A DNA stretch of 64,000 nucleotides from an uncultured virus (IMG/VR IMGVR_UViG_3300020207_000018) (taxonomy: Duplodnaviria; Heunggongvirae; Uroviricota; Caudoviricetes): IMG/VR virus record IMGVR_UViG_3300020207_000018, positions 1 to 64,000 of that record, one strand, 5' to 3'. The position numbers were made by a program, and so were the translations under genes. Shown here piece by piece: positions 22,672 through 58,700 of this stretch. The notes below the pieces were generated by a model. That model was not told where the DNA came from and made no database searches. It worked only from the letters and a program-made list of their open reading frames with translations. Position 1 is the first letter of the stretch, and each line of letters opens with the position of its first letter.

Positions 22672-22688
22672 ACTAAATAGTATTTAGT
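22672..22688. promoter_or_regulatory. Palindromic divergent late-type promoter ACTAAATA-G-TATTTAGT
   Basis: Lies between the divergent genes ending at 22639 (-) and starting at 22687 (+). Confidence 0.55.
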
Positions 22689-36565: not shown

Positions 36566-37261
36566 TTATAGGATCAAGTTGCCGCTTTCGTCTATATCAT
36601 ACTCAAAATTTGAATCATTCCAACCAATTCGTGAATTTTTATCATCCATGCAATTGACATCTAAATTAAAAGATATACTGTATCGATCTTTGTTTGTTAG
36701 ATTGGGTTCGACCATATGCATTAACCCACTAGGAAAAATGTATAAGTGACCTGTCTTAGGTTGTATCTGATAAGATTCAATCATTCTATTGTTGCCAGGA
36801 AATGCTCCTGCAACTTTATGATTTGTATCTATGAAAGTTAAATCGCCTTCGTCACCATCAGCATGTATATAAAATACACCTGAATAGAAACAACCATTGT
36901 GTAAGTGAGGTCTGTTCCATGCACCATTGTCATTAATGTTAGCCCATGAGTTATGCATATCAACACGGTGTGCATCTTTGTTTAATCCCATGAAAGGTAA
37001 TAACTCGTCTCTGACTAAACGTTTAATTGATCTTATACATTTAATAAAAGTTGGATGTTGATCGCAACCATCATTTGATTGCCAACCTGTATATGCATTT
37101 GATATCTTTCGACCAACAGGATCTTTCTTTCGCATACCATCAATCTCTCTTTTTAAGAGATCAAAGTATTCTGCATTCATCAATGTAGGTTCTTTATCTG
37201 CATCTTTGCCTAAAAAATCTCTATGAAAAACAAATGCAGGAAATAATAATTTTACACTCAT
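36566..37261 (-). CDS. Putative 2OG-Fe(II) oxygenase (TIGR02466-like)
   Basis: SWANIN, PHLH, SGVFY, FPSGLMHMVEPN, RYSISFN. Confidence 0.85.
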   Translation of the reverse strand: MSVKLLFPAFVFHRDFLGKDADKEPTLMNAEYFDLLKREIDGMRKKDPVGRKISNAYTGWQSNDGCDQHPTFIKCIRSIKRLVRDELLPFMGLNKDAHRVDMHNSWANINDNGAWNRPHLHNGCFYSGVFYIHADGDEGDLTFIDTNHKVAGAFPGNNRMIESYQIQPKTGHLYIFPSGLMHMVEPNLTNKDRYSISFNLDVNCMDDKNSRIGWNDSNFEYDIDESGNLIL

Positions 37262-38106
37262 TCTTCTACCTCATTATGAAAAGGACATTCAGGTGGTGGT
37301 TCATCTTCTTTGAAGTATTTACCTTTTTCTTGCCAATAACCTTCGTTTCTATATGGCCCAAGTTTAGTTCCCCTTAGTCTTGATTCATCGGAGTATTCTC
37401 TTCTACCTTGTTCATCCATAGACATCATTTCTGCATGTGAAGTTACTGAACTTCTGTTGTCCTGAAATTCTCTAGGACTACGTAATGTATACGTAGAATT
37501 CCATTCTTCTCTTTTAAAAGGAATAACCTGACACAATGGTGTGCCTTTTTTTATAGTAAATGAATGATTAACTCTAGGATAAAAAATTATTTGTGAATTA
37601 TCTTGGCTCACATTGAACTTATCTGTATCGATAATTCCTTGCCATGTAGCAAAGTATCTATTTTGAAATAAGAAAGGGTCTAAGTAAAGACATGAATAAC
37701 CCTCTGGTGTTATAATGTTCCATGGGTTTCTCATTTTAAATGCATCTTTGACAGGACCATCATCGCCAAAATAATCGAAAGCATTTTCAAATTGTTCTTT
37801 GGGGTGTGTAGGTGAAGCGTAATGTTCTCCTGAAGGATCGAAAGTTCTAACGTCTGTTGTACTTACACCGTCTTTTGCATTGTTACCTACGATAACTTCC
37901 ATGTCTCTGTTTGCAAGTAGGTACCAACCACTCTTTAACCAATCATCCATAGCAGGACATGCTCTGATAGTTTGAGTATTAACACCACGTACTACTGCAT
38001 TTACTTTAATTCTTTTCCACCAATCTGGATGCCATTTCTTTGCAAGAACTGGTTTAAAGTCTCTGAGAGTCTTCTCGTTATATGTAATAAAGTCTATCGT
38101 TGGCAT
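37258..38106 (-). CDS. Conserved hypothetical protein (DUF6065-like), often near phage oxygenases
   Basis: TIRACPAMDD, NPWNIITPEGYSCLY, GIIDTD, IKKGTPLCQVIPFKR. Confidence 0.6.
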   Translation of the reverse strand: MPTIDFITYNEKTLRDFKPVLAKKWHPDWWKRIKVNAVVRGVNTQTIRACPAMDDWLKSGWYLLANRDMEVIVGNNAKDGVSTTDVRTFDPSGEHYASPTHPKEQFENAFDYFGDDGPVKDAFKMRNPWNIITPEGYSCLYLDPFLFQNRYFATWQGIIDTDKFNVSQDNSQIIFYPRVNHSFTIKKGTPLCQVIPFKREEWNSTYTLRSPREFQDNRSSVTSHAEMMSMDEQGRREYSDESRLRGTKLGPYRNEGYWQEKGKYFKEDEPPPECPFHNEVEE

Positions 38107-38815
38107 TATAAAACTCTTCGCTAACTCCTATCTCTACTTCATCGCCTCTTAAAACAATTGATCTTCTATCCATGTATCTAGCAGTTTCATTTGGTGCATC
38201 TGCACCGTGTGGTATTCTGCCGTCAAACATTACTAATCTATTTGGTACAAACTCCACTTCAGCGATTTGGTGGTTTTTAATATGTTCGTTTCTACCTTCT
38301 AAACCCTGTTGAGGTTCATCATATAATCTTAATGTGCCACCCCATTCGGGATTCCAATATGTATTGTAATAGTATAAGAAAGATAAATTCCATGAATCAT
38401 TAGTATCACAATCTGCATGAGTTGTTCCATGACAACCCATTGTCTGTGAGTTTAAACCCATGTACTGAAATCTTTTCCATTTGAAACCGAAATCTGTACA
38501 TATTCTTCTATTTAGATAGTGAGCAGGATAAGAATCTTTCTTATCAATATCTCCTTCAACATTGTGAAATCCGAAATCTTTATTGTCCCGATCAGCCTTG
38601 AAGAAACTTGCACCCCAAAAACTATGGTGAGGTAATCCTGTTGGGCTTTCGCTACCCACTTGATTTGTTTTAGACCAAATATTACTGCTTGTAAATCTTT
38701 GATTAATCCAATGCCATATAGAAGTCTCTAAGTAATTATCAATTATGTAGACTTTATCTAAAGGTAATGATTGAATATGAAAAGGAGAATCAACCTTTTC
38801 TACAAGCAGGCTCAT
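38078..38815 (-). CDS. 2OG-Fe(II) oxygenase (P4H-like)
   Basis: HAD, FLYY, WNPEWGG, PNRLVMFDGRIPH, RRSI. Confidence 0.85.
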   Translation of the reverse strand: MSLLVEKVDSPFHIQSLPLDKVYIIDNYLETSIWHWINQRFTSSNIWSKTNQVGSESPTGLPHHSFWGASFFKADRDNKDFGFHNVEGDIDKKDSYPAHYLNRRICTDFGFKWKRFQYMGLNSQTMGCHGTTHADCDTNDSWNLSFLYYYNTYWNPEWGGTLRLYDEPQQGLEGRNEHIKNHQIAEVEFVPNRLVMFDGRIPHGADAPNETARYMDRRSIVLRGDEVEIGVSEEFYNANDRLYYI

Positions 38816-39377: not shown

Positions 39378-39406
39378 ATTATACACTTGTGTGTGTTAAA
39401 TTTCAA
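39378..39406 (-). promoter_or_regulatory. Sigma70-type promoter TTGAAA-N17-TATAAT
   Basis: Near-consensus elements with 17-nt spacing. Confidence 0.65.
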
Positions 39407-41007
39407 GAGACTTTATTCGCTCTCGCATACGCTCTTTCATATACGTCTAACATATTTATATCACTGGTATCCATGTCTTTTATCCATGGGCCACCACGTG
39501 TCCAGTGAATTGCTAAAGCATGTGGTTTGTCTAAATGTGTTTCATATCCTTCAGTTATAATATGTCTAGGTGGTATTCTACTGATCTTGTCTGTCCATTC
39601 AAATTGATGTAAATACTTTCCTGACTCTGTATTCACTACTTCTGGTGTTAACTTCTTACAGTCTTCGTGTGCATTATTGAATACCATAAGACTAGACCAC
39701 AATTTCTTAGGATAAGAAACATTCTTTTCGCCATCAAATTTAGTATCACTATGATTTTCGAAATCGTATTGTACACAAGCAATAGCATCTTTTGGGTCTA
39801 AGAAATAGAATAGTGGTAGTATAGACTTACTAAACAATATGTCATCATCTAAGAAGATACTGAAACCTTCATAATTTTCTAGGTAAGGTATTAAGAATCT
39901 ACTATATGTAAACTCTGTTGATTGATTAGCATACTCTCTAGTGTATTCAGGTATCTTTGATACATCTAGTATCTTAATATTAGGTTGCCAGTCTTTTATA
40001 AATTCATACATGTCACCTTTACCAAAACCATATTCAATTCCTTTTTGAAGCAACTTAACATTTGTTTCAGCAAGATCACCATGACGACTATCGTAACCCA
40101 CATAGATTGATATAGGTTTGCCTTTTGCCATTTTCATAATGTTTTTATTGAAGTCTGTAACTGTACTTCTAAAACCGATATCAGCAAAAGCACTATGCAT
40201 TTCTATAAAACCCTCTGTATATGTAAATGAAAGATGTGTTGGTTTATCTTTCTTTTCAACAAAGGCTTTCCATAATTCAATTACTTGTTCAGCTGATAGA
40301 ACTTCTGAATCAAATAAATCAAACTTATCCCATACAAACATTTCCATATCTGGATCATCTATCATTTCAAATACTGCTGATCTTACAGAACCTGGATGTA
40401 TTCTAAGAGTGTATCGTTCTTCTTCTGAAGAAGGTTTGTTCACTACACCTTGGATTGGATTCCAAAGGCCTTCATGTTTGATACTATCAATTAACCAGTG
40501 TGCTTTAGCACTGTGATAATAAGTTGAATTATTGATTTCTAATTGTCTTTCAGTTGGGCCTTCTGCACCAAAAACATATTTTGTATAGTCTGTTATCTTT
40601 TGATATTCATCATTTCGGTTTTTGAAATCAAAGCCAGAATGACCAGGTATTGGTGTTTCAGGTTTTTCAGTATAACCGTACTGCAAATAATATTGATAGA
40701 CATATGCTTGATGTTGTAATTGATTAAACGGTTGTAATTTTGTTGTATCAGAATAATCGTATAATCTTTCGTCTATCAATTTAGAAGCTTCTTTCCATTT
40801 AACATGCTTTAGTTTTGGTAATTTATTCTTCATCAACCAATCTAAAGACTTATATGCTTCAGTTTCCTTGTAGTCTTTGGATAGTTCGATACTACCAATA
40901 TGACAATGATCCATGAAAATGACTTCATCGCCACTATCTGGCCCAAATGGTGATCTTCTATTTTGAAATGCTTCTTGTACGGCTTCTAAGGTTTCTAATT
41001 TTCTCAT
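39403..41007 (-). CDS. Two-domain protein: unknown N-terminal domain plus GT-A (GT8-like) glycosyltransferase
   Basis: IYVGYDSR, STEFTYSRFLIPYL, FLDDD, WSSLMVFN, LHQFEW, IHWTRGGPW. Confidence 0.8.
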   Translation of the reverse strand: MRKLETLEAVQEAFQNRRSPFGPDSGDEVIFMDHCHIGSIELSKDYKETEAYKSLDWLMKNKLPKLKHVKWKEASKLIDERLYDYSDTTKLQPFNQLQHQAYVYQYYLQYGYTEKPETPIPGHSGFDFKNRNDEYQKITDYTKYVFGAEGPTERQLEINNSTYYHSAKAHWLIDSIKHEGLWNPIQGVVNKPSSEEERYTLRIHPGSVRSAVFEMIDDPDMEMFVWDKFDLFDSEVLSAEQVIELWKAFVEKKDKPTHLSFTYTEGFIEMHSAFADIGFRSTVTDFNKNIMKMAKGKPISIYVGYDSRHGDLAETNVKLLQKGIEYGFGKGDMYEFIKDWQPNIKILDVSKIPEYTREYANQSTEFTYSRFLIPYLENYEGFSIFLDDDILFSKSILPLFYFLDPKDAIACVQYDFENHSDTKFDGEKNVSYPKKLWSSLMVFNNAHEDCKKLTPEVVNTESGKYLHQFEWTDKISRIPPRHIITEGYETHLDKPHALAIHWTRGGPWIKDMDTSDINMLDVYERAYARANKVS

Positions 41008-41036: not shown

Positions 41037-42167
41037 TTATGACGTAATTGGAGATGCTGGCCACTGTTGTGACAATACACCGTCCCAACGATTCACTGGT
41101 GTTCTACCTTGTGTAGCGTAAGTACTTGGTGATCTATGTTGATAGGTAAACGGAGTTCTACCTTGTCTAGAATATGTACTTGGTGATCTATGTTGATAGG
41201 TAAACGGAGTTTGACCTTGTCTTGCATATGTCACAGGTTGCCTATGTTGATATGTACTTGGCGATTGTGTTATTCTAGGATCTCTGTAAGTACTTGGTGA
41301 TCTGTGTTGATATGTGCTAGGTACACGATATGCTCTAGGATCTCTGTAAGTACTTGGTGATCTATGGTTATACGTGCTAGGTACTCTATAACTTCTTGGA
41401 TCACGATATGTAGATGGTGATCTGTGTTGATATGTGCTAGGTACACGATATGATCTTGGGTCTTGATATGTAGACGGCGATCTATGTTGATATGTGCTAG
41501 GTACACGATATGATCTAGGATCACGGTATGTAAATGGCGATCTATGGTTATATGTAAACGGTGACCTATGTTGATACGTAAACGGTGATCTATGTTGATA
41601 AGTCGAAGGTTGTCTAGCGCCTCTAATATTAGGTTCTTGTGCTGATACAGGGTGTCTGTAACCTGCTGGTTGTTGTGCTGATCTAATATTAGGTTCTTGT
41701 GCTGATACAGGGTGTCTATAACCTGCTGGTTGTCTAGCATTACCAATTACTGGTTGTTGTGCTGATACAGGTGCTCTATATGCTGCTGGTTGTCTAGCAT
41801 TTCTAATATTAGGTTCTTGTGCTGATCTGATATTAGGTTCTTGACCGCTTCTAATATTAGGTTCTTGTGCTGATCTAATATTAGGTTGTTGACCATTCGC
41901 AATATAAGGCGACTGGAAAGTAAACGGTTGCCTTGCGTTATTAGGTTGTTGAGCATTTGCAATATAAGGCGACTGGAAAGTAAACGGTTGCCTTGCGTTA
42001 TTAGGTTGTCTAGCATTTGCAATATAAGGTGACTGATATGTAAATGGATTCTGGAATGTAAATGGATTCTGGAATGTAAATGGATTCTGGAAAGTAAAAG
42101 GTGTCTGCACAGGAACAGAAGCCTGTGTAATACCTTGAGCATTTGCTGGATAAAAACCTGTTGCCAT
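41037..42167 (-). CDS. Pro-delimited repeat protein B (39 units, 334 of 376 aa); antiparallel complement of 42179..43954
   Basis: Units PFTFQN, PNNARQ, PYIANAQQ, PNIRSAQE, PAGYRHPVSAQE, PSTYQHRS, PSTYRDPRSYRV, PSTYSRQGRT. Confidence 0.85.
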   Translation of the reverse strand: MATGFYPANAQGITQASVPVQTPFTFQNPFTFQNPFTFQNPFTYQSPYIANARQPNNARQPFTFQSPYIANAQQPNNARQPFTFQSPYIANGQQPNIRSAQEPNIRSGQEPNIRSAQEPNIRNARQPAAYRAPVSAQQPVIGNARQPAGYRHPVSAQEPNIRSAQQPAGYRHPVSAQEPNIRGARQPSTYQHRSPFTYQHRSPFTYNHRSPFTYRDPRSYRVPSTYQHRSPSTYQDPRSYRVPSTYQHRSPSTYRDPRSYRVPSTYNHRSPSTYRDPRAYRVPSTYQHRSPSTYRDPRITQSPSTYQHRQPVTYARQGQTPFTYQHRSPSTYSRQGRTPFTYQHRSPSTYATQGRTPVNRWDGVLSQQWPASPITS

Positions 42168-42178
42168 TTTACTTTAGA

Positions 42179-43954
42179 TTACTTAGGTGATGGTTTAAAG
42201 AAGAAGAAGTTGTGAGCTAATACACCATTTGCAAAGAAATTGTGATTGTCGCCAACGTTCTTCAAGTTATACACCTGTTGTGAATCTTTCTCCTCTATTT
42301 TAATTATTTCTAGTCCTATTTCTGTACCTAGTACAGCATCTGTCATGGTCATCAAATGATCACCGACTGCGATTTCTGAATTTACAAATTCATCTCCACC
42401 TTCTTCTTTGTGGAATTCTTTAAATTTCTCTAAGTTGATAACACCCCATTCACCATTCATTGTTCTAAATGGATGTTCTGAAGTTGTTTCAAGTATTCTA
42501 CCGTCTGATAAATGTATCTCATGTATTGATACTTCTCTTGGTTGCATCAACTCTTCGACTACACCGATCTCTAATTTATTTGTCTCTTCGTTCCAAGTCA
42601 TTACGTCTTGACCAACTTCTACTGTTTCAATTGGTACATGACTGCCATCGCCCAACCATATCATTGTGCCGGCAACAAAACATCCTTTGCCACCTCCAGG
42701 AATGTTACCAGGTATTGGACCAAACGGTTGATAGAAGTACACTGCTGGGAAGATAAATGGATATCTTGCTGTTTGTTGTGTAGTACTTGGTTGCCTTGCG
42801 TTATTTGGTTGCCTTGCGTTGTTTGGTTGCCTTGCGTTATTAGGTTGTCTAGCAGCAACTGGTTGTCTTGCCTGATACGTAAACGGCGCACGGAATGTAA
42901 ATGGAGTCCTTGCGTTATTAGGTTGTCTTGCCTGATACGTAAACGGCGCACGGAATGTAAATGGAGTCCTTGCGTTATTAGGTTGTCTTGCCTGATACGT
43001 AAACGGCGATCTATGGTTATACGTAAACGGTGATCTGTGGTTATATGTAAACGGTGATCTGTGGTTATACGTATACGGTGATCTATGTTGATACGTAAAT
43101 GGCACCCTATATGATCTTGGATCACGGTATGTAAATGGTGATCTGTACGCATACGTAAACGGTATCTGATATGATCTTGGATCACGGTATGTAAATGGTG
43201 ATCTATGTTGATACGTAAATGGCACCCTATATGATCTTGGGTCTCTATATGTAAATGGTGACCTATGTTGATACGTAAACGGTGTTTGTGCGTTTCTGAT
43301 ATTTGGTTCTTGTGCAGACCTAATATTTGGTTCTTGACCGCTTCTAATATTAGGCTCTTGAGCAGCAACTGGATGTTGATAAGATGCTGGTGTTTGTCTA
43401 TTTCTTATAAACGGAGTCTGAGCACTTACAGGGTGATTATACCCAGCTGGTGTTTGTGCGTTTCTGATAAACGGATTCTGTGCATTAACAGGATGTTGAT
43501 AAGAAGCAGGTTGTTGTGCGTTTCTGATAAACGGATTCTGTGCATTTACTGGATGTCTATAGAATGCTGGTGTTTGTCTATTTCTTATAAACGGATTCTG
43601 TGCATTAACAGGATGTCTATATGATACAGAGTTTTGTGCATTCGCAATATAAGGCGATTGAGCATTCGCAATATAAGGATACGGCTGTTGTGCATCTCTT
43701 ATAAATGGATTCTGTCTATTAGCAATATAAGGATACGGCTGTTGTGCATCTCTTATAAATGGATTCTGTCTATTAGCAATATAAGGATATGGCTGTTGTG
43801 TAGGTTGTTGACCTGATGCGTTATTCCACCCACTAGGAGTTTTAATGTAAATTTGATCTACATCTTTCCAAGTGTTTGAAGCAGTTTTAACCCATGCACC
43901 TTGGGTTGAATTCCAACCTGAGGGGGTTTTTACTTTCTGTGAGCCTGTCGCCAT
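42179..43954 (-). CDS. Pro-delimited repeat protein A (39 units) with C-terminal Hint domain; putative fibre subunit
   Basis: W-rich N-terminal cap, repeat residues 55-388, then CFVAGT...TSEHPF...HNFFANGVLAHN. Confidence 0.85.
   Translation of the reverse strand: MATGSQKVKTPSGWNSTQGAWVKTASNTWKDVDQIYIKTPSGWNNASGQQPTQQPYPYIANRQNPFIRDAQQPYPYIANRQNPFIRDAQQPYPYIANAQSPYIANAQNSVSYRHPVNAQNPFIRNRQTPAFYRHPVNAQNPFIRNAQQPASYQHPVNAQNPFIRNAQTPAGYNHPVSAQTPFIRNRQTPASYQHPVAAQEPNIRSGQEPNIRSAQEPNIRNAQTPFTYQHRSPFTYRDPRSYRVPFTYQHRSPFTYRDPRSYQIPFTYAYRSPFTYRDPRSYRVPFTYQHRSPYTYNHRSPFTYNHRSPFTYNHRSPFTYQARQPNNARTPFTFRAPFTYQARQPNNARTPFTFRAPFTYQARQPVAARQPNNARQPNNARQPNNARQPSTTQQTARYPFIFPAVYFYQPFGPIPGNIPGGGKGCFVAGTMIWLGDGSHVPIETVEVGQDVMTWNEETNKLEIGVVEELMQPREVSIHEIHLSDGRILETTSEHPFRTMNGEWGVINLEKFKEFHKEEGGDEFVNSEIAVGDHLMTMTDAVLGTEIGLEIIKIEEKDSQQVYNLKNVGDNHNFFANGVLAHNFFFFKPSPK
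42209..42682 (-). other. Hint / intein-like autoprocessing domain
   Basis: Cys1 (CFVAGT), block B TSEHPF, VYNL, terminal His-Asn. Confidence 0.85.
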
Positions 43955-50316: not shown

Positions 50317-50455
50317 TTTTTTCTCCTAAAAAATGAATTGGGTTTAATATAAAATTTGCAAATTTCTAGTTCACATATCCCTAGAAGATCATTATCTATC
50401 TCGTCCTCTCACAATGAGGGTCGTGTCTCACTGAATGACACCTTGATTGTAATAG

Positions 50456-50463
50456 TATTTATA
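50456..50463 (-). promoter_or_regulatory. T4 late promoter TATAAATA
   Basis: Exact consensus, 140 nt upstream of the 50316 start. Confidence 0.75.
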
Positions 50464-50466
50464 AGA

Positions 50467-50709
50467 CTAAAATGTTCCGCCGTCTATAACAGTGGTAGTA
50501 ACCCACTTATCAGACGATGCGTTATATGCCAATAGGCCGTTATCTGTTTCACTAGCATCTACATCTGATAGTTCTTGTATAGATTTAGCTGATAGATTGA
50601 CATTAGTAGATGAGTTACCAATTGCAACTTGTTTTACTCTAAAGTTACCTTGACCTTGCACCTTTCCTGAGATGCCTGCTACTCTTCCTACTACACCTTT
50701 AATTGCCAT
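50467..50709 (-). CDS. Small virion protein ending DGGTF
   Basis: ELSDVD...LLAYNASSDKW motif. Confidence 0.65.
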   Translation of the reverse strand: MAIKGVVGRVAGISGKVQGQGNFRVKQVAIGNSSTNVNLSAKSIQELSDVDASETDNGLLAYNASSDKWVTTTVIDGGTF

Positions 50710-50711
50710 AC

Positions 50712-51047
50712 TTAACTCCTAGTTACACCTGGCGTTATAATAGCTTGTCCTTCGACAACTCTACTAGTTTGACCACCAGAACTTGTTATGTTTAAGTCAT
50801 ACAGATATCTGCCTGGATTTAGAGCAGTTGTTTGTGTATCTGTTAAAGACAAAGTGACCTGACCTGAAGCCTCTGAAATAGATGTAGAAAATGTTGCACT
50901 TACTGAAGAAGACGTATATGTTTTTCTCATTTGTGCAGCTGCTGAATAACCTGATAGGTCTAAAACTGAACCATCAGAGTTTGTTACATCTACTGTAATG
51001 CTGAAGTCTGAACCTTGATCTATGTAAAGATTTGCTATAATTGCCAT
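50712..51047 (-). CDS. Conserved virion structural protein (BppU-N-like fold suspected)
   Basis: NLYIDQGSDF, DLSGYSAAAQMRK, GRYLYDL, RVVEG, TPGVT; late promoter at 51053-51060. Confidence 0.7.
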   Translation of the reverse strand: MAIIANLYIDQGSDFSITVDVTNSDGSVLDLSGYSAAAQMRKTYTSSSVSATFSTSISEASGQVTLSLTDTQTTALNPGRYLYDLNITSSGGQTSRVVEGQAIITPGVTRS

Positions 51048-51064
51048 ATTACTATTTATACGGA

Positions 51065-51994
51065 CTAATTATTTAATTGGGAATATGGGACTTTTGTATG
51101 TATTTTTTCTACTGTAGTTGGATCAGTTTTTACGTATGCTTCTTCTAATTGTTTTACAGTACCGTCTGCATCTTTAACATAAACTTGTTTAACTTCTGCT
51201 ACAGGACCTATAGGTCTTCTGCTAGAATATGTTATCTGATATGTAAATGGTGATCTATGTTGATATGTAGTTTGTACAACAATGTTACCACTTCTTGTAT
51301 TCTGAGCATTTGCAATATATGGTGAAGGTTGAGAAGCAGAAACCCTATATGTATCTGGCGATCTATGTTGATACGTAAATGGTATTCTATGTTGATAGAA
51401 CGATGGTGATCTATGTTGATACGTAAATGGTGTTCTACCTGTTGTAGGATATGTTATAGGTTGCCTATGTTGATATGTTGTTGGTGTTCGCCCTGTTGCC
51501 TGATATGTTGAAGGCTGTCTTGCATCTCTAATAAATGGATTCTGTCTATCAACAGGATGTCTGTAAGTTGTAGGTGAAGGTTTATTTCTTATAAACGGAT
51601 TCTGTTTATTTACAGGATGTCTGTAATTAGCTGATATACGATAGCTACCAATTATCGGATTCTGTCTGTTAACAGGATGTTGATAAGCTGCTGGTTGACG
51701 TTGATTTGCAACATAAGGTGATGGTCTATTTCTAATAAACGGATTCTGTTGTTGTGCAATGTATGGTGATTGAAATGGACTTCTTGCGATAGCAGCTGTC
51801 TGTGCGTTTGCTATGTAAGGAATAGGCACTCTAGTATTAGCAACTGTCTGAGCGTTTGCTGATGCACGGGCATTAGCAATGTACGGCACAGGCGTAGTAC
51901 CGTTAGTAGAATTTTGTCTATTAGCAATATAAGGATACGGCTGTTGTCCTGGCGTTGCGTTTGAATTGCTATATGTTACTTGTACGGTTGGCAT
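51065..51994 (-). CDS. Pro-delimited repeat protein D; antiparallel complement of 51996..53660
   Basis: Residues 19-260 use the same unit alphabet as A and B; C-terminal VKQVYVK...EEAYVK cap. Confidence 0.85.
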   Translation of the reverse strand: MPTVQVTYSNSNATPGQQPYPYIANRQNSTNGTTPVPYIANARASANAQTVANTRVPIPYIANAQTAAIARSPFQSPYIAQQQNPFIRNRPSPYVANQRQPAAYQHPVNRQNPIIGSYRISANYRHPVNKQNPFIRNKPSPTTYRHPVDRQNPFIRDARQPSTYQATGRTPTTYQHRQPITYPTTGRTPFTYQHRSPSFYQHRIPFTYQHRSPDTYRVSASQPSPYIANAQNTRSGNIVVQTTYQHRSPFTYQITYSSRRPIGPVAEVKQVYVKDADGTVKQLEEAYVKTDPTTVEKIHTKVPYSQLNN

Positions 51995-51995
51995 T

Positions 51996-53660
51996 TTATA
52001 CTATTATTGGCCCCCCACTACCTGCATTATATGCTGCTCTTAAACTTATGGGGCTTGATGACCAAGAACCGTTGAAGTATGAAGCTATATGAAAATATGT
52101 ATAATAAGTGTCTGTGCCTTTTGTTGCTTTTATTCCAAAATAAACATCATTTGATGTTAATTGTACTGGATTACCTGTGCTGTCGTATACACCCCACTTA
52201 AAAAATCTAGCAGTGCGAGTACCATTAAATCCACCCCTTGAAGTTGAACCAGACCAGAAATTATAATATTGGCCTCTGGTTTTTCCACAAACATGTGGAT
52301 AAAATCCATAACTGTTTCCACCTCCTCCGTAACAATTTGTTTGAGCTTGAGTACCTGATACCGATTCACCACTTGCATAATATGCTACATCAAAATTCCA
52401 AGTATCGTCAATTATACCATTAGCATTCAAATCGGTAATAGGCATATAAAATCTATAATAAAAACTCCAACCACTATTACTAAAAGAGTTATAATGACCA
52501 TACGATATTCTAAAAGCCCCTAAAGGATTTGTCTGAACAGTATTATTGTTAGCTGCAAAATCAAATTGCATATAACAACCACATTCGGTATGATTAAAAC
52601 CAGGATTACCAGTTGCTAATTGAAGAGTATTCCAACTTGGTACACTAAACATAGAAGCAGTTCCTGAAGGTGGGTCAGAATTTATATAATTCGTACTACC
52701 ACCAAAAGGATATACATCCCAAACAGGATTACTTATACCTGAGCCCCAAGGTTGAGGGTTCGGTTGATTAGCTAAAGTTGCACTTGTTGCTGTTGAACTT
52801 CCAGACAGTGCTGATTCGCCTACAATACCTTCATATGATGTTGGTACCTGAGCAGTCGATGGTGACTGATATATGTAAGGCGTTTGGCCTTGTGCTGAAT
52901 AAGTCGAAGGCGATTGATAAATGTAAGGCGATGGTCTTTGCGCCTGATACGTAAACGGATTTTGATAAATCGATGGCACCCTATATGTTTGAGGACTTCT
53001 TTGTTGTGCTTGATAAGTTGAAGGCACTCTATAAGGTACAGGTTGTTGATTTGACTCCTGTGCGTTTATATTTGCTGGTGACTGGTGTTGATACGTAGTA
53101 GGTTGTTGTGCCTGATATGTTACAGGATTTCTGTAACTTCTTGGGTCACGATATGTACTAGGTGATCTATAAGCATAACTTACAGGATTTCTGTAACTTC
53201 TTGGGTCACGATATGTACTAGGTGATTGATGTTGATACGCAACTATAACCTGTGCATTTCTTGGGTCTCTATAAGTTGAAGGACTTTGATGTTGATACGT
53301 AAACGGTGTTTGTGCGTTTGCAGGATACGGATACGGATTCTGTCTATTAGCAATATAAGGTGATTGTGCATCGGCCTGATAAGTATACGTTTGTTGTGCG
53401 TTTCTTATAAAAGGATTTTGTCTCGATCTTATGTTAGGTTGCTGTGCGTTTCTTATAAAAGGATTTTGCCTATTAACAGGATTTCGATAAATTATTGGTT
53501 GTTGATTCTGATAAGTCGAAGGAGACTGAAACGTATAAGGAACAATCGATGGTTGTTGTCTTATATTTGGTGCTTGAATGTTAGCAGGTTGCCTTGCTAT
53601 GTAAGGTTGCTGAAAACTACCGCCATTTAAATTGTGTTTAATGTAAATTTTATCTGCCAT
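51996..53660 (-). CDS. Pro-delimited repeat protein C with C-terminal globular (receptor-binding-like) domain
   Basis: Residues 19 to about 272 are repeats, followed by about 280 aa of G/S/N/aromatic-rich sequence. Confidence 0.8.
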   Translation of the reverse strand: MADKIYIKHNLNGGSFQQPYIARQPANIQAPNIRQQPSIVPYTFQSPSTYQNQQPIIYRNPVNRQNPFIRNAQQPNIRSRQNPFIRNAQQTYTYQADAQSPYIANRQNPYPYPANAQTPFTYQHQSPSTYRDPRNAQVIVAYQHQSPSTYRDPRSYRNPVSYAYRSPSTYRDPRSYRNPVTYQAQQPTTYQHQSPANINAQESNQQPVPYRVPSTYQAQQRSPQTYRVPSIYQNPFTYQAQRPSPYIYQSPSTYSAQGQTPYIYQSPSTAQVPTSYEGIVGESALSGSSTATSATLANQPNPQPWGSGISNPVWDVYPFGGSTNYINSDPPSGTASMFSVPSWNTLQLATGNPGFNHTECGCYMQFDFAANNNTVQTNPLGAFRISYGHYNSFSNSGWSFYYRFYMPITDLNANGIIDDTWNFDVAYYASGESVSGTQAQTNCYGGGGNSYGFYPHVCGKTRGQYYNFWSGSTSRGGFNGTRTARFFKWGVYDSTGNPVQLTSNDVYFGIKATKGTDTYYTYFHIASYFNGSWSSSPISLRAAYNAGSGGPIIV

Positions 53661-53661
53661 A

Positions 53662-55569
53662 TCATATCACAAACCATAAATGTCCAACTTCTTTACCTGT
53701 ACCACTTGGTGTACCAGATAGTGAAGAAGCACTAACAACTTCATAATCTAACTCAACATCATCGCCGTCTAATTTAACACCGTTTGATGTGTTCACTGAT
53801 AAAGTAGCAACACCATCTAATGAATCACCTGAAGAACCTGCGTTATAAGATTTCGCAAGACCTGAACCAGCAGATATGACACTATTTACTCTATCATCTG
53901 TAAAGTATTTATTAGTTTGTTCTGATATAGAATCGGTACCTGTTGAGTTATCTGCAACTTGTAAATCACCATTAGAATCAAATACTAGTATTTGACCAGC
54001 AGATGCACTAGATGTACTACCTACATCTGTTAAATCAGATATAGCAGAGTTCATTGTTGTGTTTATTGATACATTGCCTTTAGCAGTCTGTGTGACTGAA
54101 CCTGTAACTGCACCAGTCAATGAAAAGTCTGAATTATCTAAAACTAAATCTAAAGTATTATCTGAGTCATCATAGGTAACTGAAAGACCTGATTCAGTGT
54201 TTGAACTAATCATTGTACCGACTGTGTCAGCAATTCTTTCTACAATGTCATCAACTACAAAACTAGAACCGTTGTACTTAAGAACACTATTAGTATTTGC
54301 GCCACTTGTATTTACATCTGAAAGATCATCGATACTAGCAGCTGCGATTCTAGCGTCTGCTCTACCGTCTGTATAATAAAGATTAGAACTTCCTTCTGTT
54401 AAATCATCAGTGTCATGGTTTGATAAACTTGAAACTGTACCTGTAAGATGTCCTGTTGATACATTTAAAACTGTTGTTGAACCGTCTGCTGTAATTGTAG
54501 ATAATCTTGCAGTAGCATCGGTACCATTTGTACCGTTATCGATGATTGTTTGACCACCACTTGATAGAACATCACCTTTTAGATTACCATTAAAAGTAGT
54601 TGCAGTCATGTCTGTTGCATGAATGTTCTGCCATTTTAGTATACTACTTCCAAGTTCGTGTGTGTTGTTAGCACTTGGTAAAACATCTGAGTCTATTGAA
54701 CCTGTGAATGATATTGTATCACTAGATGCGTTACCTAAATCGATGTTACCATTCAGTGATGATAATCCATTAACTGTTAAAGCGCCAGTAGTTGTAACTG
54801 TTGAGGCATTTAAATCACCGCCTGTAAGTGTTGCAGTTCCATCACTCAATGTACCCACGTTGACTGTTGCGCTAAAGTTTGCATTTACACCACCAGTAAT
54901 ACTACCTGAGTTGATACTCATGGTGCTATCAGTAATTGTAGGCGCAGTCATTACACCGCCTGTTGTGATTGTTATATCATCTTCTGCAAATGTTTTACCT
55001 GCAAGTTGAATGTTGAAACCAGTCTCTAATTCTGTTGTGTTATTTGTGTTTGAAGCATTAAGAATAACACCATTTGAGTTGTTGTTAAAGATTGAGTTTG
55101 TATCTGATAACTGCCAGTATGAAGCACCTGTACTTGCTAATGCAGTACCTAAGTATGAACCTGTGTAAGAATATAGAACGAATCTATCGCCATTTGATAA
55201 ACCAGAACCGTATGTAGCACCTTGTAAGTTAATTCTTCCATAACTACCATCTGAATTTTGGCTAGTGATCTGATAGTCTATACCTTCTATTAAGTGAGAA
55301 CCGTTGACAAAGACCTGAATTCGGTCTTGTACAAATTTCATCACATTGTTAAACTGATCAGCGCCTTCGAAATGCGTTTCACCACCAGTTGCAATATACA
55401 CATACTCTTGGAAGTAAAATGCTTTATCTTCTACACTATTAACAGCGTCAACTAAAGTTGCTTGAGCAGTAGTTCTAAGACCACTAATATCACCCACGTC
55501 ATTAGCCAACACATTATATTGTTGTCTAAAATTTTCTATAGTACTGAAACTGTCTACTGTTTTAGCCAT
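53662..55569 (-). CDS. Tail-fibre-like structural protein
   Basis: TIENFRQQYN N-terminus, VFVNG domain, EGSSNLYYT repeat, ends GKEVGHLWFVI. Confidence 0.75.
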   Translation of the reverse strand: MAKTVDSFSTIENFRQQYNVLANDVGDISGLRTTAQATLVDAVNSVEDKAFYFQEYVYIATGGETHFEGADQFNNVMKFVQDRIQVFVNGSHLIEGIDYQITSQNSDGSYGRINLQGATYGSGLSNGDRFVLYSYTGSYLGTALASTGASYWQLSDTNSIFNNNSNGVILNASNTNNTTELETGFNIQLAGKTFAEDDITITTGGVMTAPTITDSTMSINSGSITGGVNANFSATVNVGTLSDGTATLTGGDLNASTVTTTGALTVNGLSSLNGNIDLGNASSDTISFTGSIDSDVLPSANNTHELGSSILKWQNIHATDMTATTFNGNLKGDVLSSGGQTIIDNGTNGTDATARLSTITADGSTTVLNVSTGHLTGTVSSLSNHDTDDLTEGSSNLYYTDGRADARIAAASIDDLSDVNTSGANTNSVLKYNGSSFVVDDIVERIADTVGTMISSNTESGLSVTYDDSDNTLDLVLDNSDFSLTGAVTGSVTQTAKGNVSINTTMNSAISDLTDVGSTSSASAGQILVFDSNGDLQVADNSTGTDSISEQTNKYFTDDRVNSVISAGSGLAKSYNAGSSGDSLDGVATLSVNTSNGVKLDGDDVELDYEVVSASSLSGTPSGTGKEVGHLWFVI

Positions 55570-55780: not shown

Positions 55781-58700
55781 CTAAGACCAGAAATTATTGG
55801 TACTTGAGATGTGTTTGTAGCCTGTCCTACAATCTTAATTACAAAACCTGTAAATTCAGGTAAGTTGTCTGCTGTGTATTCGTATTCTTTAAAGTTTCTA
55901 GCGTCTTGATCAATAGCTGTGTCAGGACCACCAGTTGAGTTAAAGAATTCAAATCCTAAATCATCTACTGGTGTATCTTCATCGTTTTTGATGAGTTTGT
56001 ATAAAACTTTAATGTCTGAGTTAGGTGGTCTAAAGTTATCTGATAAAACTTTCAATGATGTAGCAGGATTCTTTAAACTTACCAATCTTGTTGTGTATAC
56101 CATTGCGTTGTTATCGCCATCTGGTTCTGTTGATGGTACGTAAACTTCACCATCTGATAGATCGGCAGCAGAATCAATATCATTAATTCTGTTCATAATA
56201 CCTAGACAACCAATTGTACCTGTATCAATGTAAGGTGATACGTTTGGATTTGATGATCTCATTTGTAGTAATAATCTAAATGATCTCTGGTTACCCATTC
56301 TCTCTAATTCGTTGAGGGGTGATGCAACAACACTTGGTCTACTGAAGTAAACGTTATCGTTTAATTTAATAAAGTCATTTGCAGTTCTTCTTACATATTC
56401 AGTATCTAAGTTTGAATCTTCTGGTGAACCCATACCTGTTCTATTAATACTTGAGAATATTTGAGTATTATTAAATGTTATAGAAGGTATCATTGTATGA
56501 ATTGCATCATAATAGATGTTTCTTGTACTTCTAACTTGACTACCACCGCCATCTACACTTTGAGTTGCAACAAAACTTGTGCCGCCTTCTAAGTCATAAG
56601 ATGACATTACAGATGTTCTAGGTAGAACATTAAATGAGTCTATACTATAATCTTGTAGACTCTCGTGTGTACCGTTAATAGCTGCAACTGGAATACCACC
56701 CAATGTGTTTTCAACATTGGTGACACTTACTGTAAATGTTTGACTGTCGATTGTGACTGTAATAGTGTCGTTCACTGCGTAGTCACTACCTGGATCAGTA
56801 ATCTTAATTGAGTTTACTGCATCTAAATCTCCAGCGTCTACAACTACTTTGACTTTAAGACCTGTACCTGTACCACCTGTTACAACAGCATCATTACTTC
56901 CACCAGTCTCGTATGTCTGTGCTGTTACGGCAGCACTAATAGCACTTGGTGTGCCAATCTCTACTACGCCATCTTCTTTATCGCCTTTCACGCCTGCTAT
57001 TGTTACGTGTGAAGTTGTTTCGTACATACCGTGTGAGTAGTTTAATATCTTAACATAACTTTGACCAGCAAATGTTTGAACTGGATTCTCTTGTAGTTTT
57101 ACATCTCCGATAAAATCGTTTTCAAACACAACTTCTGCAACTTTTGAGGTATCGAATTGTGCAATCTTAAGATTGAACTTGAGATCGTCTGTTTGTTCTG
57201 CTGTCCATGTTGATGCGTTTTGTGATAAGAACAATGAACCAGCATATGGTTGTCCTGAAATTGTTTCACCAGTAATTAAATCGTTTTCGCCCATTCTGGA
57301 TATGAAACATTCGTATTCGTTTGAGTTTGATAAAACTACGAAACAGTATTCTTTACCTTTCTCTAGGTATACAGGCGAATCAAATGTAAATGTTGTAGCA
57401 CTTGAACCGTCTTCTGAAATATTAACTTCGTTTGGATTCTTAGATACTGTTGAGAATGGTAATACTAACTGACCTGGATAACCATTCACCATGTTTCTAA
57501 CTTGTACTGACACTGGTAGTGCATCGTCTTTAGTTCTAAAGAATAGATCAACTGAAGACAACATCATGCCACCATCCATATCTACTAAGAATGATTCTGC
57601 TAATGGATCGACCCACTCTGTCTCACGCAATTCTCTCTCATCGAATATTCTAGGAATTCTAGGATCAACGTCCCAAAAATCTCTAGGGTCATCAATAGGC
57701 GGTGGTGACGGTATCGGCGTACTTGTTGGTGTCGGCGTTGGTGTCGGTGTCGGTGTAGGCGACGGTGTAGGCGCAGGAGTTGTTGTCGGCGCTGGCGTCG
57801 GCGTAGGTGTCGGTGTAGGACTTGGTGTAGGCTCTGGAGTCGGTGTTGGACTCGGTATAGGTGCCTCAGTAGGTTCTGGTGTAGGTGTAGGTGCTGGAGT
57901 TGCAGGTGGTTCTGGACTTGGCTCAGGTGGTGTACCTGTACCAGGTGTTACGTTTAATAACTCACCTCTTCTTACTATTTGTCTCTCAGCAGATAGCCTT
58001 TCAATAACTACTCTACCATTCCTTGTTGATACAATTTCAGTTTGTGAAGCTTGTAATAAACCTTGTGCTTGATAGATTGCATTACCTCGTGATGCTGGGT
58101 TAGAAAGGTTATTTGAACTTGATGTAATAACCATTTCTCTAGCACCAGTTGGGAATCTCTGGAATCTATCGTTAGGTAAACTGAATGTTGCTCTTAATCT
58201 ACCGTTACCATCTGTTTTTACTATTTGATCGTATGATGTACCACCATCTTTACTGTACAGTGTACTGAATGGTTTTACATATGAGTTTACATCGATACCA
58301 TCAAAGAATACGTAATGGTTTGTGTTTGGTTTTAAGTTAACTGCATCTATTTCAATGTCTCTTGGTCTACAGAATGGTACAATTGTGACACTAACAATTC
58401 TATCGTTACGTGTTTCAACTAACTCTTCTACAACCGATGTTCTAACACCTGTTCTGATCTGAGACTCAGGTGTTTCTGTTACATTTCTTGTAACAGTAGT
58501 ATTAGGTGTATATTCACCACCTTGTGAAGGATCACCGTTCCAAGCTGCTGGAACACTTGATAATGTCTCTGTCTCTACAACTGTAGGTTCACCTACCCAT
58601 GTAGTCTGCCATGCGTTCCAAACAGTGCCTAATGCGTTTTCGTTCTCTGCTAATACTGCATCGAAGTTGCCTTCTCTGTTAACTCTTACTTCTGGTAATT

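What the first reader, a model, noticed from the sequence alone, without database searches (positions are those of the whole stretch)
51065..53660. Second independent gene pair using the same antiparallel code with a different barcode
Seen directly: protein C (51996..53660, residues 19-260, N->C) and protein D (51065..51994, residues 260->19) both span 242 aa and align unit for unit as 6,6,6,4,6,8,12,8,8,8,10,8,10,8,12,8,12,8,12,8,8,8,4,6,10,6,6,10,6,10. Example pairs: PFIRNAQQ/PFTYQHRS, PYIANRQN/PTTYQHRQ, PYPYPANAQT/PSTYQATGRT, PSTYRDPRSYRN/PAAYQHPVNRQN, PVTYQAQQ/PYVANQRQ, PSTYSAQGQT/PYPYIANRQN. This pair is more degenerate. Several units lack the initial Pro, so some terminal boundaries were set using the partner, but the central 8/10/12 block is unambiguous. 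The same alphabet in a different order would make A-B and C-D orthogonal, giving two fibre types with different tips (Hint domain on A, globular domain on C).
Basis: partly seen in the sequence, partly recalled or inferred. Interest (0 to 1): 0.9.

Follow-up and report, generated by a model that had tools for sequence, protein, structure and literature searches.

The report
Mirror-coded two-protein phage fibre shaft
Two neighbouring genes of an uncultured marine T4-like phage encode proline-punctuated repeat proteins that match unit for unit, in length and in complementary type, when one is read backwards, which points to a two-chain antiparallel fibre shaft built on a peptide pairing code that I found described in no paper.

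Summary
The next best register gives 15. No shuffle reached 23 (0 of 5000), and only 4 of 5040 block permutations did.

A residue-pair matrix trained on 44 other loci scores +130 bits at 280. Every other register from 270 to 290 scores negative.

The rule holds across the family:
- All 46 distinct adjacent gene pairs from IMG/VR are mirrored.
- 636 of 683 eight-residue units pair tyrosine-type with isoleucine-type.
- Partner arm lengths correlate at r=0.95.
- Repeat modules were gained in both genes together.

In the same genomic slot other phages carry one fused gene. Its two halves obey the same code, so it reads as a single-chain hairpin.

Prolines sit on one residue parity and Tyr/Phe on the other in 99.9% and 99.6% of cases, which fits a continuous beta ladder.

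By score, C-D (146 bits) beats the cross pairs (63-86 bits), but no binding was tested. Structure predictions were uninformative.

Earlier notes of this scan describe the same design on other genomes. I found no paper on it.

The parts
51996..53660 (-). Gene C, 554 aa: conserved N-terminal motif, repeat arm, orphan globular C-terminal domain
   Evidence: ORF. No Pfam or PHROG family. No PDB relative by sequence.
53607..53660 (-). C residues 1-18: conserved N-terminal motif shared by C-like and fused proteins. Proposed half of the base 'clasp'.
   Evidence: Invariant M1, D3, I5, I7, Q18, P19 in alignment A2. The same motif heads the fused forms.
52881..53606 (-). C repeat arm, residues 19-260, 30 units read N to C
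   Evidence: All 35 prolines are at odd positions and all 33 Tyr/Phe at even positions.
53055..53522 (-). Central 17 units of the C arm (residues 47-202), the strongly supported block
   Evidence: +111.6 bits at x+y=280. The best other even register scores -214.5.
51999..52880 (-). C residues 261-554: non-repeat C-terminal domain, proposed distal tip
   Evidence: Only itself and one weak hit (E=1.2e-4) among 1.84 billion representatives. Nothing in the phage records and nothing usable in the Atlas.
51065..51994 (-). Gene D, 309 aa: repeat arm plus conserved C-terminal tail. Starts 1 nt after C's stop codon.
   Evidence: No Pfam or PHROG family.
51215..51940 (-). D repeat arm, residues 19-260. 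Read C to N, it mirrors the C arm.
   Evidence: All 31 prolines are at odd positions and 28 of 29 Tyr/Phe at even positions.
51068..51214 (-). D residues 261-309: conserved tail shared by D-like and fused proteins. Proposed other half of the base 'clasp'.
   Evidence: Invariant and near-invariant columns of alignment A1 lie here. The same tail ends the fused forms.
50712..51047 (-). LtfC-like beta-sandwich protein (111 aa), always directly downstream of the pair or of the fused gene
   Evidence: PF23926 at E=4.6e-5, below its cut-off. phrog_3304 'L-shaped tail fiber protein assembly' at E=4e-22. 59-81% identical copies follow in 71 of 74 loci; the other 3 loci are truncated.
53662..55569 (-). 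Upstream 635-aa fibre-like protein, a conserved left neighbour of the slot
   Evidence: Homologues at 31-64% identity lie upstream in 73 of 74 loci; the missing one starts 62 nt before the gene. The HTVC008M counterpart is annotated 'baseplate wedge initiator'.
42179..43954 (-). Gene A, sister pair: 591 aa, repeat arm plus Hint-like C-terminus
   Evidence: Mirrors B at x+y=412, matching 47 of B's 52 prolines.
41037..42167 (-). Gene B, sister pair: 376 aa, repeat arm

Best explanation
C and D are made from one operon and pair side by side in opposite directions. C residues 19-260 run N to C alongside D residues 260-19, in the register x+y=280. Together they form the long shaft of a host-recognition fibre of a pelagimyophage-like T4-type virus.

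How the pairing works (inferred):
- Each arm is a string of proline-started units of 6, 8, 10 or 12 residues.
- A unit pairs only with a unit of equal length and of the complementary type. Tyr-type (P..Y.HRS-like) pairs with Ile-type (P.IRN/P.IAN-like). The 10-residue PYPYIAN-like unit pairs with the P.TY..QG.T-like unit. PSTYRD-like pairs with PVN.QN-like.
- The aperiodic order of unit lengths, the 'barcode', allows one global register only. It also favours the cognate partner over the second pair, A/B, made in the same cell.

Proposed conformation (inferred): one continuous two-residue-periodic extended conformation, an antiparallel beta ladder.
- Prolines face each other at non-hydrogen-bonded sites on one face.
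- Tyr, Phe, His and Ala lie on the other face.
- That gives about 80 nm for 242 residues at about 3.3 Å per residue.

Proposed polarity (inferred): the conserved ends, C's N-terminal motif and D's C-terminal tail, meet at one end and dock the fibre to the virion. The variable end, C's orphan domain next to D's N-terminus, points outwards.

Shown: the mirror, the code, its conservation and covariation, and the fused equivalents.
Inferred: physical pairing, beta conformation, polarity, presence in the virion and stoichiometry.
For: (1) The C/D mirror is significant without any segmentation. It is unique in register under a matrix trained on other loci.

(2) Family-wide rule.
- All 46 distinct adjacent pairs from 80 IMG/VR loci have an antiparallel proline peak above the parallel one, with z of 3.0-11.5. 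In 44 of 46, no shuffle out of 200 reaches it.
- In the best cases 64 of 70, 61 of 65 and 41 of 43 partner prolines coincide.

(3) Complement code.
- Of 683 eight-residue unit pairs, 636 are Tyr-type against Ile-type. Only 1 is Tyr/Tyr and 13 are Ile/Ile, where about 160 of each would be expected.
- Position 6 of the Tyr-type unit covaries with position 4 of its partner: H-R 154, N-A 48, A-A 38. Aromatic residues account for 5 of the 7 Gly cases.

(4) Length covariation.
- Arm spans of partners correlate at r=0.946 over a range of 162-545 aa.
- One lineage carries 2, 3 or 5 copies of the same 44-residue module in both genes.

(5) Fused forms.
- 37 proteins carry C's N-motif and D's tail on one chain. 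31 of them have their best self-mirror at length minus 30-46, the register expected from C19 pairing with D260. In 16 of them at most 1 of 200 shuffles reaches it.
- Their two arms obey the same code around a central tip of 70-150 aa.
- Fused genes (35 loci) and split pairs (36 loci) occupy the same slot between the 635-aa protein and the LtfC-like gene.

(6) Two-residue periodicity.
- In C and D, 66 of 66 prolines are at odd positions and 61 of 62 Tyr/Phe at even positions.
- Family-wide the figures are 3599 of 3601 and 3637 of 3653.
- In an antiparallel ladder, opposed residues alternate between hydrogen-bonded and non-bonded pairs. Pro opposite Pro on one parity therefore costs no inter-strand hydrogen bond (established beta-sheet geometry).

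(7) Context.
- The genes lie between the VrlC/DUF4815 gene and the neck genes, among proteins with tail-fibre PHROG hits.
- Passages of PMC7029224 call this region the pelagimyophage host recognition cluster.
- C and D are separated by 1 nt.

(8) Weak hint: one low-confidence AF2 model of fused P0004 (pLDDT 35) has two 36-residue strands, 13-48 and 406-441. Their ends sum to 454, against 456 from the proline mirror.
Against: No physical evidence of binding, of virion location or of stoichiometry.

- The second AF2 model, of P0009, shows no arm structure (pLDDT 32). The first is far below a trustworthy confidence.
- C/D is the degenerate case. Only 18 of 30 unit boundaries have proline in both chains, and the N-terminal five units score -5.3 bits.
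- By proline coincidence, C's best non-cognate partner reaches 22 against 23.
- Across the set, the cognate partner is strictly best in 35 of 46.
- In the syntenic slot, 8 of 21 distinct split pairs (the L131 type) have non-significant proline mirrors, with 5-71 of 200 shuffles reaching them. The pair matrix still gives them an antiparallel peak of 63-76 bits, against 25-34 for the second-best register and 16-19 for parallel.
- 6 of 37 fused forms do not peak in the expected register, and 21 of 37 are not individually significant at 1 in 200 or better.
- One fused lineage uses 7-residue units, which breaks strict parity.
- The loci are related, so the 46 pairs are not 46 independent events. 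By length and register they form 36 groups.
- The pair matrix was trained in registers chosen by proline coincidence.
- Phage fibres are usually trimers, and a two-chain ribbon 80 nm long seems too thin on its own. Higher-order assembly is therefore likely, but it is unknown.
Confidence: 0.75

Rival explanations
1. D is a dedicated assembly template or chaperone. It pairs antiparallel with C's arm during folding to set its register or prevent aggregation, and is then released, so that the mature fibre holds C only.
For: - Phage fibres often need gene-adjacent chaperones (general knowledge; T4 gp38 and gp57A are described as such in passages of PMC6957217).
- D is the shorter protein and always lies downstream.
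- The mirror and the code are explained equally well.
Against: - Fused single-chain forms keep both arms in one protein in the same genomic slot, so both arms are part of one product there.
- D's tail and C's N-motif are the two most conserved parts and would lie together at one end. That suits a joint docking domain better than a leaving group.
- Some pairs consist of repeats from end to end in both proteins, for example L035 with 585 and 540 aa.
Confidence: 0.12
2. The two arms do not touch each other. Both lie on a third, polar component such as a central trimeric fibre, or the mirror is a relic of a split hairpin gene whose pairing is no longer needed.
For: - No contact has been shown.
- Several fibre-like proteins are encoded nearby.
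- Split and fused forms are clearly related.
Against: - Heterotypic unit pairing, with position-specific covariation concentrated on positions that face each other in the register.
- Matched module gains in both genes.
- Both indicate ongoing selection on the match between the two chains themselves. A relic would decay quickly in tandem arrays.
Confidence: 0.06
3. The paired rod is real but is not a tail fibre. It could be a neck or capsid whisker, or a product exported to the cell surface and related to the phage's curli-like genes.
For: - The function rests on gene context only.
- The window also encodes CsgG, CsgF and a curlin-repeat protein.
- The arms are rich in Gln, Asn and Tyr, like amyloid formers.
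Against: - The genes sit inside the structural operon, between the baseplate VrlC gene and other fibre genes, next to an LtfC-like fibre assembly or attachment protein.
- The curli genes lie about 47 kb away, at 794-4015.
- By inspection, C's N-terminus is the conserved hydrophilic motif and not a signal peptide.
Confidence: 0.05
4. The mirror is a chance by-product of two tandem arrays with similar periodicities.
For: - Tandem arrays of period 20 in both genes give many coincidences at several offsets. The best parallel offset gives 18.
- The ends of the C/D alignment are degenerate.
Against: - 0 of 5000 segment shuffles and 0 of 5000 unit shuffles reach the observed value, and 4 of 5040 block permutations do.
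- The register is unique.
- The same rule holds in all 46 distinct pairs, whatever their barcode.
Confidence: 0.02

Closest known systems
Needle (domains D10-D11) of the phage T4 long-tail-fibre tip protein gp37
   Same: - A myophage host-recognition fibre in which the chain runs out to the tip and returns, so that outgoing and returning segments lie antiparallel. Passages of PMC6957217 state that D10 is built from residues 811-881 and 1010-1026, that is, from both sides of the needle. The description of the fold itself is recalled from Bartual et al. 2010, which I did not read here.
- The fused forms found here have the same topology: conserved ends together and the tip in the middle.
   Different: - No sequence relation: no PDB hits for C or for B.
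- No HxH iron-binding motifs in either arm (0 in each).
- Here the two arms can sit on two separate polypeptides.
- The arms are built from short modular units with a length-and-type pairing rule and strict two-residue periodicity over hundreds of residues. None of this is described for gp37.
Streptococcal antigen I/II (SpaP/P1) stalk
   Same: - A long stalk (over 50 nm) made by two different repeat regions running antiparallel and interlocking.
- Tyrosines of one region fit into pockets of proline motifs of the other.
- The variable binding domain sits at the far end, and the N- and C-terminal parts lock the base.
- All of this is from passages of the review PMC7732690.
   Different: - A bacterial cell-wall adhesin on a single chain, pairing an alpha-helix with a polyproline helix. 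Its two regions have different repeat lengths.
- Here both arms have equal unit lengths and a two-residue periodicity that points to beta structure.
- No Pfam family of that protein matched.
Antiparallel hetero-specific coiled coils, including the arms of SMC/Rad50-type proteins (my own knowledge; not tested)
   Same: - Two long segments pair antiparallel.
- Partner choice and register are set by the pattern of repeat positions.
   Different: - Coiled coils are alpha-helical heptads.
- Here a proline every 6-12 residues excludes long helices.
- The units are of mixed even lengths and the type rule is heterotypic.
Sister pair A/B of this window, and the same family on other genomes noted earlier by this scan
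   Same: - Same vocabulary, same complement rules and same gene order, with the long protein first.
- C/D is a member of this family.
   Different: - C/D has a different order and number of units, with register sum 280 against 412.
- It is more degenerate.
- It carries the N-motif and tail of the fused/split slot next to the LtfC-like gene.
- C ends in an orphan domain, whereas A ends in a Hint-like domain.

Membership tests
Mirror-coded antiparallel repeat-protein pairs of marine T4-like phages (family defined here from 46 + 21 natural pairs) | Two adjacent, co-oriented genes, the long one first, tightly spaced | tested here: met
   C then D on the minus strand with a 1-nt spacer. The same layout is seen in 49 of 58 distinct loci and in 36 loci of the second set.
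Mirror-coded antiparallel repeat-protein pairs of marine T4-like phages (family defined here from 46 + 21 natural pairs) | Proline positions of the partners coincide in one antiparallel register, beyond shuffles and beyond any parallel offset | tested here: met
   23 coincidences at x+y=280 against 18 for the best parallel offset. 0 of 5000 shuffles and 4 of 5040 block permutations reach 23.
Mirror-coded antiparallel repeat-protein pairs of marine T4-like phages (family defined here from 46 + 21 natural pairs) | Opposed units are of equal length and complementary type | tested here: met
   10 of 11 eight-residue pairs are Tyr-type against Ile-type. +130.5 bits with a matrix trained on other loci. 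The five N-terminal units alone are inconclusive at -5.3 bits.
Mirror-coded antiparallel repeat-protein pairs of marine T4-like phages (family defined here from 46 + 21 natural pairs) | Strict two-residue periodicity: Pro on one parity, Tyr/Phe on the other | tested here: met
   66 of 66 prolines and 61 of 62 Tyr/Phe in C and D. Family-wide 99.9% and 99.6%.
Mirror-coded antiparallel repeat-protein pairs of marine T4-like phages (family defined here from 46 + 21 natural pairs) | Physical antiparallel pairing of the two chains | not testable with these tools
   Both AF2 models have low confidence.
T4 gp37-type fibre tip (needle) | Sequence or profile similarity to gp37 or to solved fibre tips | tested here: not met
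   No PDB chain at E up to 1 for C or for B. No Pfam or PHROG fibre-tip family for C or D.
T4 gp37-type fibre tip (needle) | HxH metal-binding motifs along the shaft | tested here: not met
   0 HxH motifs in either 242-residue arm.
T4 gp37-type fibre tip (needle) | Trimeric fold-back architecture | not testable with these tools
   The oligomeric state is unknown. Fold-back topology is inferred for the fused forms only.
Collagen-like or polyglycine/polyproline-II fibre repeats | Three-residue periodicity (G-X-Y) or glycine-rich motifs | tested here: not met
   0 G..G..G triplet runs. Gly is not among the 12 commonest residues of either arm, and the periodicity is 2, not 3.
Phage tail fibre / host-recognition module (functional class) | Location in the fibre/host-recognition cluster of a T4-like genome, with fibre genes as neighbours | tested here: met
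   The genes lie between the DUF4815/VrlC gene and the neck genes. Neighbours hit tail-fibre PHROGs, and the next gene downstream is LtfC-like. The cluster is described in passages of PMC7029224. This is context only, not proof of function.
Hint/intein-like domain (for sister protein A only) | Pfam Hint-clan match above the curated cut-off | tested here: inconclusive
   PF14890 scores 33.3 bits against a cut-off of 35.8 (E=5e-8). Five further Hint-clan families match below their cut-offs.

The most novel reading that the evidence does not exclude
Nature has evolved a programmable peptide pairing code. Short proline-delimited units of two complementary classes and several lengths pair heterotypically in an antiparallel beta duplex. 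The order of the units acts as an address that fixes the register over hundreds of residues. This would let one phage assemble two or more orthogonal fibres (C/D and A/B) in the same cytoplasm. It would also let lineages lengthen or shorten a fibre by matched module gains in both genes, and switch between one-chain hairpin and two-chain forms.
Probability: 0.45. Interest if true: 0.95.

Novelty: categorically new. Interest (0 to 1): 0.86.

Why it matters
If the two chains really zip together as the sequences indicate, this is a new way to build a long protein rod. It would be a non-helical heteroduplex whose partner choice and register are written in a modular code that can be read from sequence alone.

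What it would explain:
- How very repetitive fibre proteins avoid slipping out of register.
- How a phage keeps several similar fibres apart.
- How fibre length can evolve in steps, by matched module gains in both genes.

What it would offer:
- Protein designers would get a natural set of orthogonal, length-tunable zipper parts.
- For marine virology, it names a widespread gene family in the host-recognition cluster of uncultured pelagimyophage-like viruses. There are 356 database proteins at E of 0.001 or better, and hundreds of IMG/VR loci. The main genomic survey of these phages left this cluster largely unannotated (passages of PMC7029224).

Tried and rejected
Structure and complex prediction
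- Complex prediction on C(1-275) + D with alignments A2/A1 gave 'no answer' (score 0.00; controls not run). It is evidence neither way.
- AF2 on fused P0004 (38-row alignment) gave pLDDT 35.4, with two 36-residue strands only. AF2 on fused P0009 (12 rows) gave pLDDT 32.1 and no arm structure. Neither model was good enough for a fold search, so none was run.

Searches that found nothing
- ESM Atlas on C's C-terminal domain: best feature score 0.80 and TM at most 0.39, so no lead.
- Exhaustive profile-free search with the same domain: itself plus one hit at E=1.2e-4. I therefore did not fold it.
- PDB sequence search with C and with B: no hit.
- Pfam and PHROGs: nothing for C, D or B. The weak 'Cementoin' hit on A is below its cut-off, and I take it to be compositional.
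- Cultured phages (50,697 records): no match for the C-D DNA, for C's tip domain, or for D. B gave one weak, partial hit in a Ruminococcus phage, which I take as chance. BLAST's low-complexity filter weakens these negatives for the repeat parts.
- The same slot in Pelagibacter phage HTVC008M holds a 78-aa non-repeat protein. In Methylophilales phage Melnitz-1 the gene just upstream of the LtfC-like gene (further neighbours not compared) encodes a 536-aa non-repeat protein.
- Four IMG/VR records at 99.94-99.95% identity, without gaps, were uninformative for covariation.

Explanations rejected
- A DNA-level explanation, inversion or antisense reading: no real inverted repeats. Reading the plus-strand repeat consensus by eye in its three frames gives no related peptide.
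- A collagen or PPII-type helix: the periodicity is 2, not 3, and there is no Gly pattern.
- Export through the curli system: rejected on gene position and on the lack of a signal-like N-terminus.

RNA libraries
- Contigs of four metatranscriptome runs match parts of C, D and the neighbours at 95% identity or more, most at 99% or more. Some cross the boundary between the upstream gene and C. None crosses the C/D junction.
- The tool warns that DNA can be present in such libraries, so this shows no transcription.
- The gaps in cover say nothing.

Literature
- Motif strings: 0 papers.
- General terms: 19 papers, of which 15 were listed, none relevant by title or abstract.
- The pelagimyophage papers contain no mention of proline or intein. 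Their three 'repeat' hits are terminal repeats and collagen-repeat domains (passages).

Failed calls
- A words look-up in earlier findings failed on its word limit and was not repeated.
The count was redone from the window file.


Full report
**What is there.**
- The window is part of a 78-kb IMG/VR virus record.
- It carries the T4-type core: gp23, gp20, gp18, gp19, terminase, and the gp8 and VrlC/DUF4815 baseplate genes.
- Its gp8 is closest to that of Pelagibacter phage Mosig, at 33% identity.
- It also carries CsgG/CsgF curli-like genes. Passages of PMC7029224 report these as typical of pelagimyophages.
- Those passages call the stretch between VrlC and the neck genes the 'host recognition cluster'. 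C, D, A and B all lie in it.
- All genes here are on the minus strand. C (51996..53660, 554 aa) ends 1 nt before D (51065..51994, 309 aa) begins.
- Neither protein, nor B, matches any Pfam or PHROG family. C and B have no solved relative.

**Check of the observation.**
I listed every proline in both whole proteins and counted coincidences at every offset, in both directions.
The runner-up has 15 and the best parallel offset 18.
- Nulls of increasing severity:

| Null model | Orders reaching 23 |
|---|---|
| Shuffle of D's proline-delimited segments | 0 of 5000 |
| Shuffle of whole units | 0 of 5000 |
| Permutation of seven intact tandem blocks, either direction, any offset | 4 of 5040, native order included |

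- A residue-pair log-odds matrix learned from 44 other loci gives +130.5 bits at 280. Registers 270-290 otherwise score -108 to -517 bits.
- The central 17 units carry +111.6 bits, the last eight +24.2 and the first five -5.3.
- No DNA inverted repeat links the two genes.

**The rule is general.**
- A search with D found 356 related proteins.
- A scan of IMG/VR with an alignment of D-like proteins confirmed 398 stretches as relatives and returned the best 80 as loci.
- 49 of the 58 distinct ORF sets have two adjacent repeat-rich ORFs, which gives 46 distinct pairs.
- In all 46, the antiparallel proline peak exceeds the parallel one and the shuffles, with z of 3.0-11.5. In 44 of 46, no shuffle out of 200 reaches it. 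Often more than 90% of the partner's prolines are matched.
- Cutting both chains at coincident prolines gives 1523 unit pairs, all of even length: 515 of 6 residues, 683 of 8 and 180 of 10.

**The units follow a complement code.**
- Of the 683 eight-residue pairs, 636 put a Tyr-type unit against an Ile-type unit. There are 1 Tyr/Tyr and 13 Ile/Ile pairs, where about 160 of each would be expected.
- Position 6 of the Tyr-type unit covaries with position 4 of its partner: H with R 154 times, N with A 48 times, A with A 38 times. Aromatic residues account for 5 of the 7 Gly cases.
- Mutual information is concentrated on the even positions that face each other in this register.
- C/D obeys the code in 10 of its 11 eight-residue pairs.
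- C/D even reproduces a rare variant pair seen in A/B: a '.Y.YRS'-type unit against an 'IG'-type unit.

**Covariation of length.**
- Arm spans of partners correlate at r=0.946 over 162-545 residues.
- In one lineage a 44-residue module is present 2, 3 or 5 times, and always the same number of times in both genes. The two genes encode complementary units, not identical ones, so each gain needed its own DNA event in each gene.

**Fused equivalents.**
- 37 database proteins carry C's N-terminal motif and D's C-terminal tail on one chain.
- 31 of them have their best self-mirror at length minus 30-46, as predicted from C19 pairing with D260. In 16 of them at most 1 of 200 shuffles reaches it.
- Their N- and C-terminal arms follow the same code around a central 70-150-residue region.
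- A second IMG/VR scan gave 74 loci, all with the same gene order: VrlC, a 635-aa-like protein, then either one fused gene (35 loci, 29 distinct) or a split pair (36 loci, 21 distinct), then the LtfC-like gene. Three loci are truncated.
- C plus D therefore replaces a single hairpin chain.
- Eight of the 21 split pairs (the L131 type) have weak proline mirrors, with 5-71 of 200 shuffles reaching them. The pair matrix still gives them an antiparallel peak of 63-76 bits, against 25-34 for the second-best register and 16-19 for parallel.

**Likely structure.**
- In C and D, 66 of 66 prolines are at odd positions and 61 of 62 Tyr/Phe at even positions.
- Over 92 arms the figures are 3599 of 3601 and 3637 of 3653.
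- An unbroken two-residue period over hundreds of residues is the signature of an extended beta strand with two faces.
- In an antiparallel ladder, opposed residues alternate between hydrogen-bonded and non-bonded pairs. Prolines facing prolines on one parity would therefore cost no inter-strand hydrogen bond. This is an inference from standard sheet geometry.
- At about 3.3 Å per residue, 242 residues give about 80 nm.
- The aromatic face probably packs against further copies, so the oligomeric state is open.
- One AF2 model of a fused form has strands 13-48 and 406-441, whose ends sum to 454 against 456 from the mirror, but at pLDDT 35. The other model shows nothing.

**Polarity.**
- The conserved parts, C's first 18 residues and D's last roughly 48, end up at the same end.
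- The orphan C-terminal domain of C ends up at the other.
- Conserved anchor and variable tip is the usual layout of receptor-binding proteins (general knowledge), so I place the anchor end towards the virion.

**Orthogonality.**
- With the trained matrix, A-B scores 483 bits and C-D 146. All cross and like-with-like combinations between the two pairs score 63-86, and parallel controls 13-24.
- A and B also show partial self-matches of 192 and 179 bits.
- In 5 of 5 genomes with two pairs, the cognate scores exceed the cross scores.
- By proline coincidence, the cognate partner is strictly best in 35 of 46. For C the margin is 23 against 22.
- Orthogonality is therefore plausible, but it rests on scores only.

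**Comparison and novelty.**
- The nearest known designs are the fold-back needle of T4 gp37 (passage in PMC6957217; the fold itself is recalled) and the antigen I/II stalk (passages of PMC7732690).
- Neither shares sequence, unit structure or the two-gene form with C/D.
- Motif and topic searches found no description of this design.
- Earlier notes of this scan report the same design on other genomes. I saw them, and I do not count them as independent evidence.

Noticed in passing
window 794-4015 (minus strand): A cluster of curli-like genes in a phage: a FecR-domain protein, a curlin-repeat protein, CsgG (E=1.5e-50) and CsgF. PMC7029224 reports such a cluster in pelagimyophages with unknown function (passages).
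   Followed up: partly
window 13094-13753, 20460-21131, 36566-37261, 38078-38815; 39403-41007: Four 2OG-Fe(II) oxygenase genes of the prolyl-hydroxylase-like Pfam families. A protein with a glycosyltransferase family 8 match just below its cut-off lies directly downstream of B. Two of the oxygenases lie within about 1-4 kb downstream of B's end. Untested idea: the proline-started repeats are hydroxylated or glycosylated.
   Followed up: no
window 42179-43954 and 41037-42167: A and B each score about 190 and 180 bits against themselves in antiparallel, because each holds both unit classes. They could form partial self-hairpins that compete with A-B pairing.
   Followed up: no
P0139 (fused form, 541 aa), residues 113-166 and 329-381: A different vocabulary of 7- and 9-residue units that still pair as mirror complements, aromatic-containing against Ser/Val-containing. 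It is an exception to the even-length rule.
   Followed up: no
L131-L144 type loci (for example L131:4001-6164): A subfamily of split pairs in the same slot has weak proline mirrors, and the pair matrix finds its best register at 271 rather than the 263 given by prolines. This may reflect register shifts or bulges.
   Followed up: partly
L167 (Pelagibacter phage HTVC008M) 4737-4973; L168 (Methylophilales phage Melnitz-1) 3318-4928: In these two cultured relatives, the gene before the LtfC-like gene encodes a 78-aa charged protein in one and a 536-aa non-repeat protein in the other. Neither has a repeat pair there.
   Followed up: yes
window 57647-57893 (inside the 2255-aa VrlC/DUF4815 gene): A Pro/Thr/Ser/Glu-rich low-complexity linker of roughly 90 residues, seen as tandem arrays of period 6-42.
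   Followed up: no
window 50400-54000: Contigs of four metatranscriptome libraries match parts of C, D, the LtfC-like gene and the upstream gene at 95% identity or more, most at 99% or more. DNA carry-over cannot be excluded. DNA runs labelled salt-marsh, marine and seawater metagenomes hold the stretch.
   Followed up: partly
window 22687-23526 (plus strand): This is the only sizeable plus-strand gene of the window that does not overlap a minus-strand ORF. It encodes a GlcNAc-transferase family protein (PF11397, E=3e-46) just upstream of the major capsid gene.
   Followed up: no
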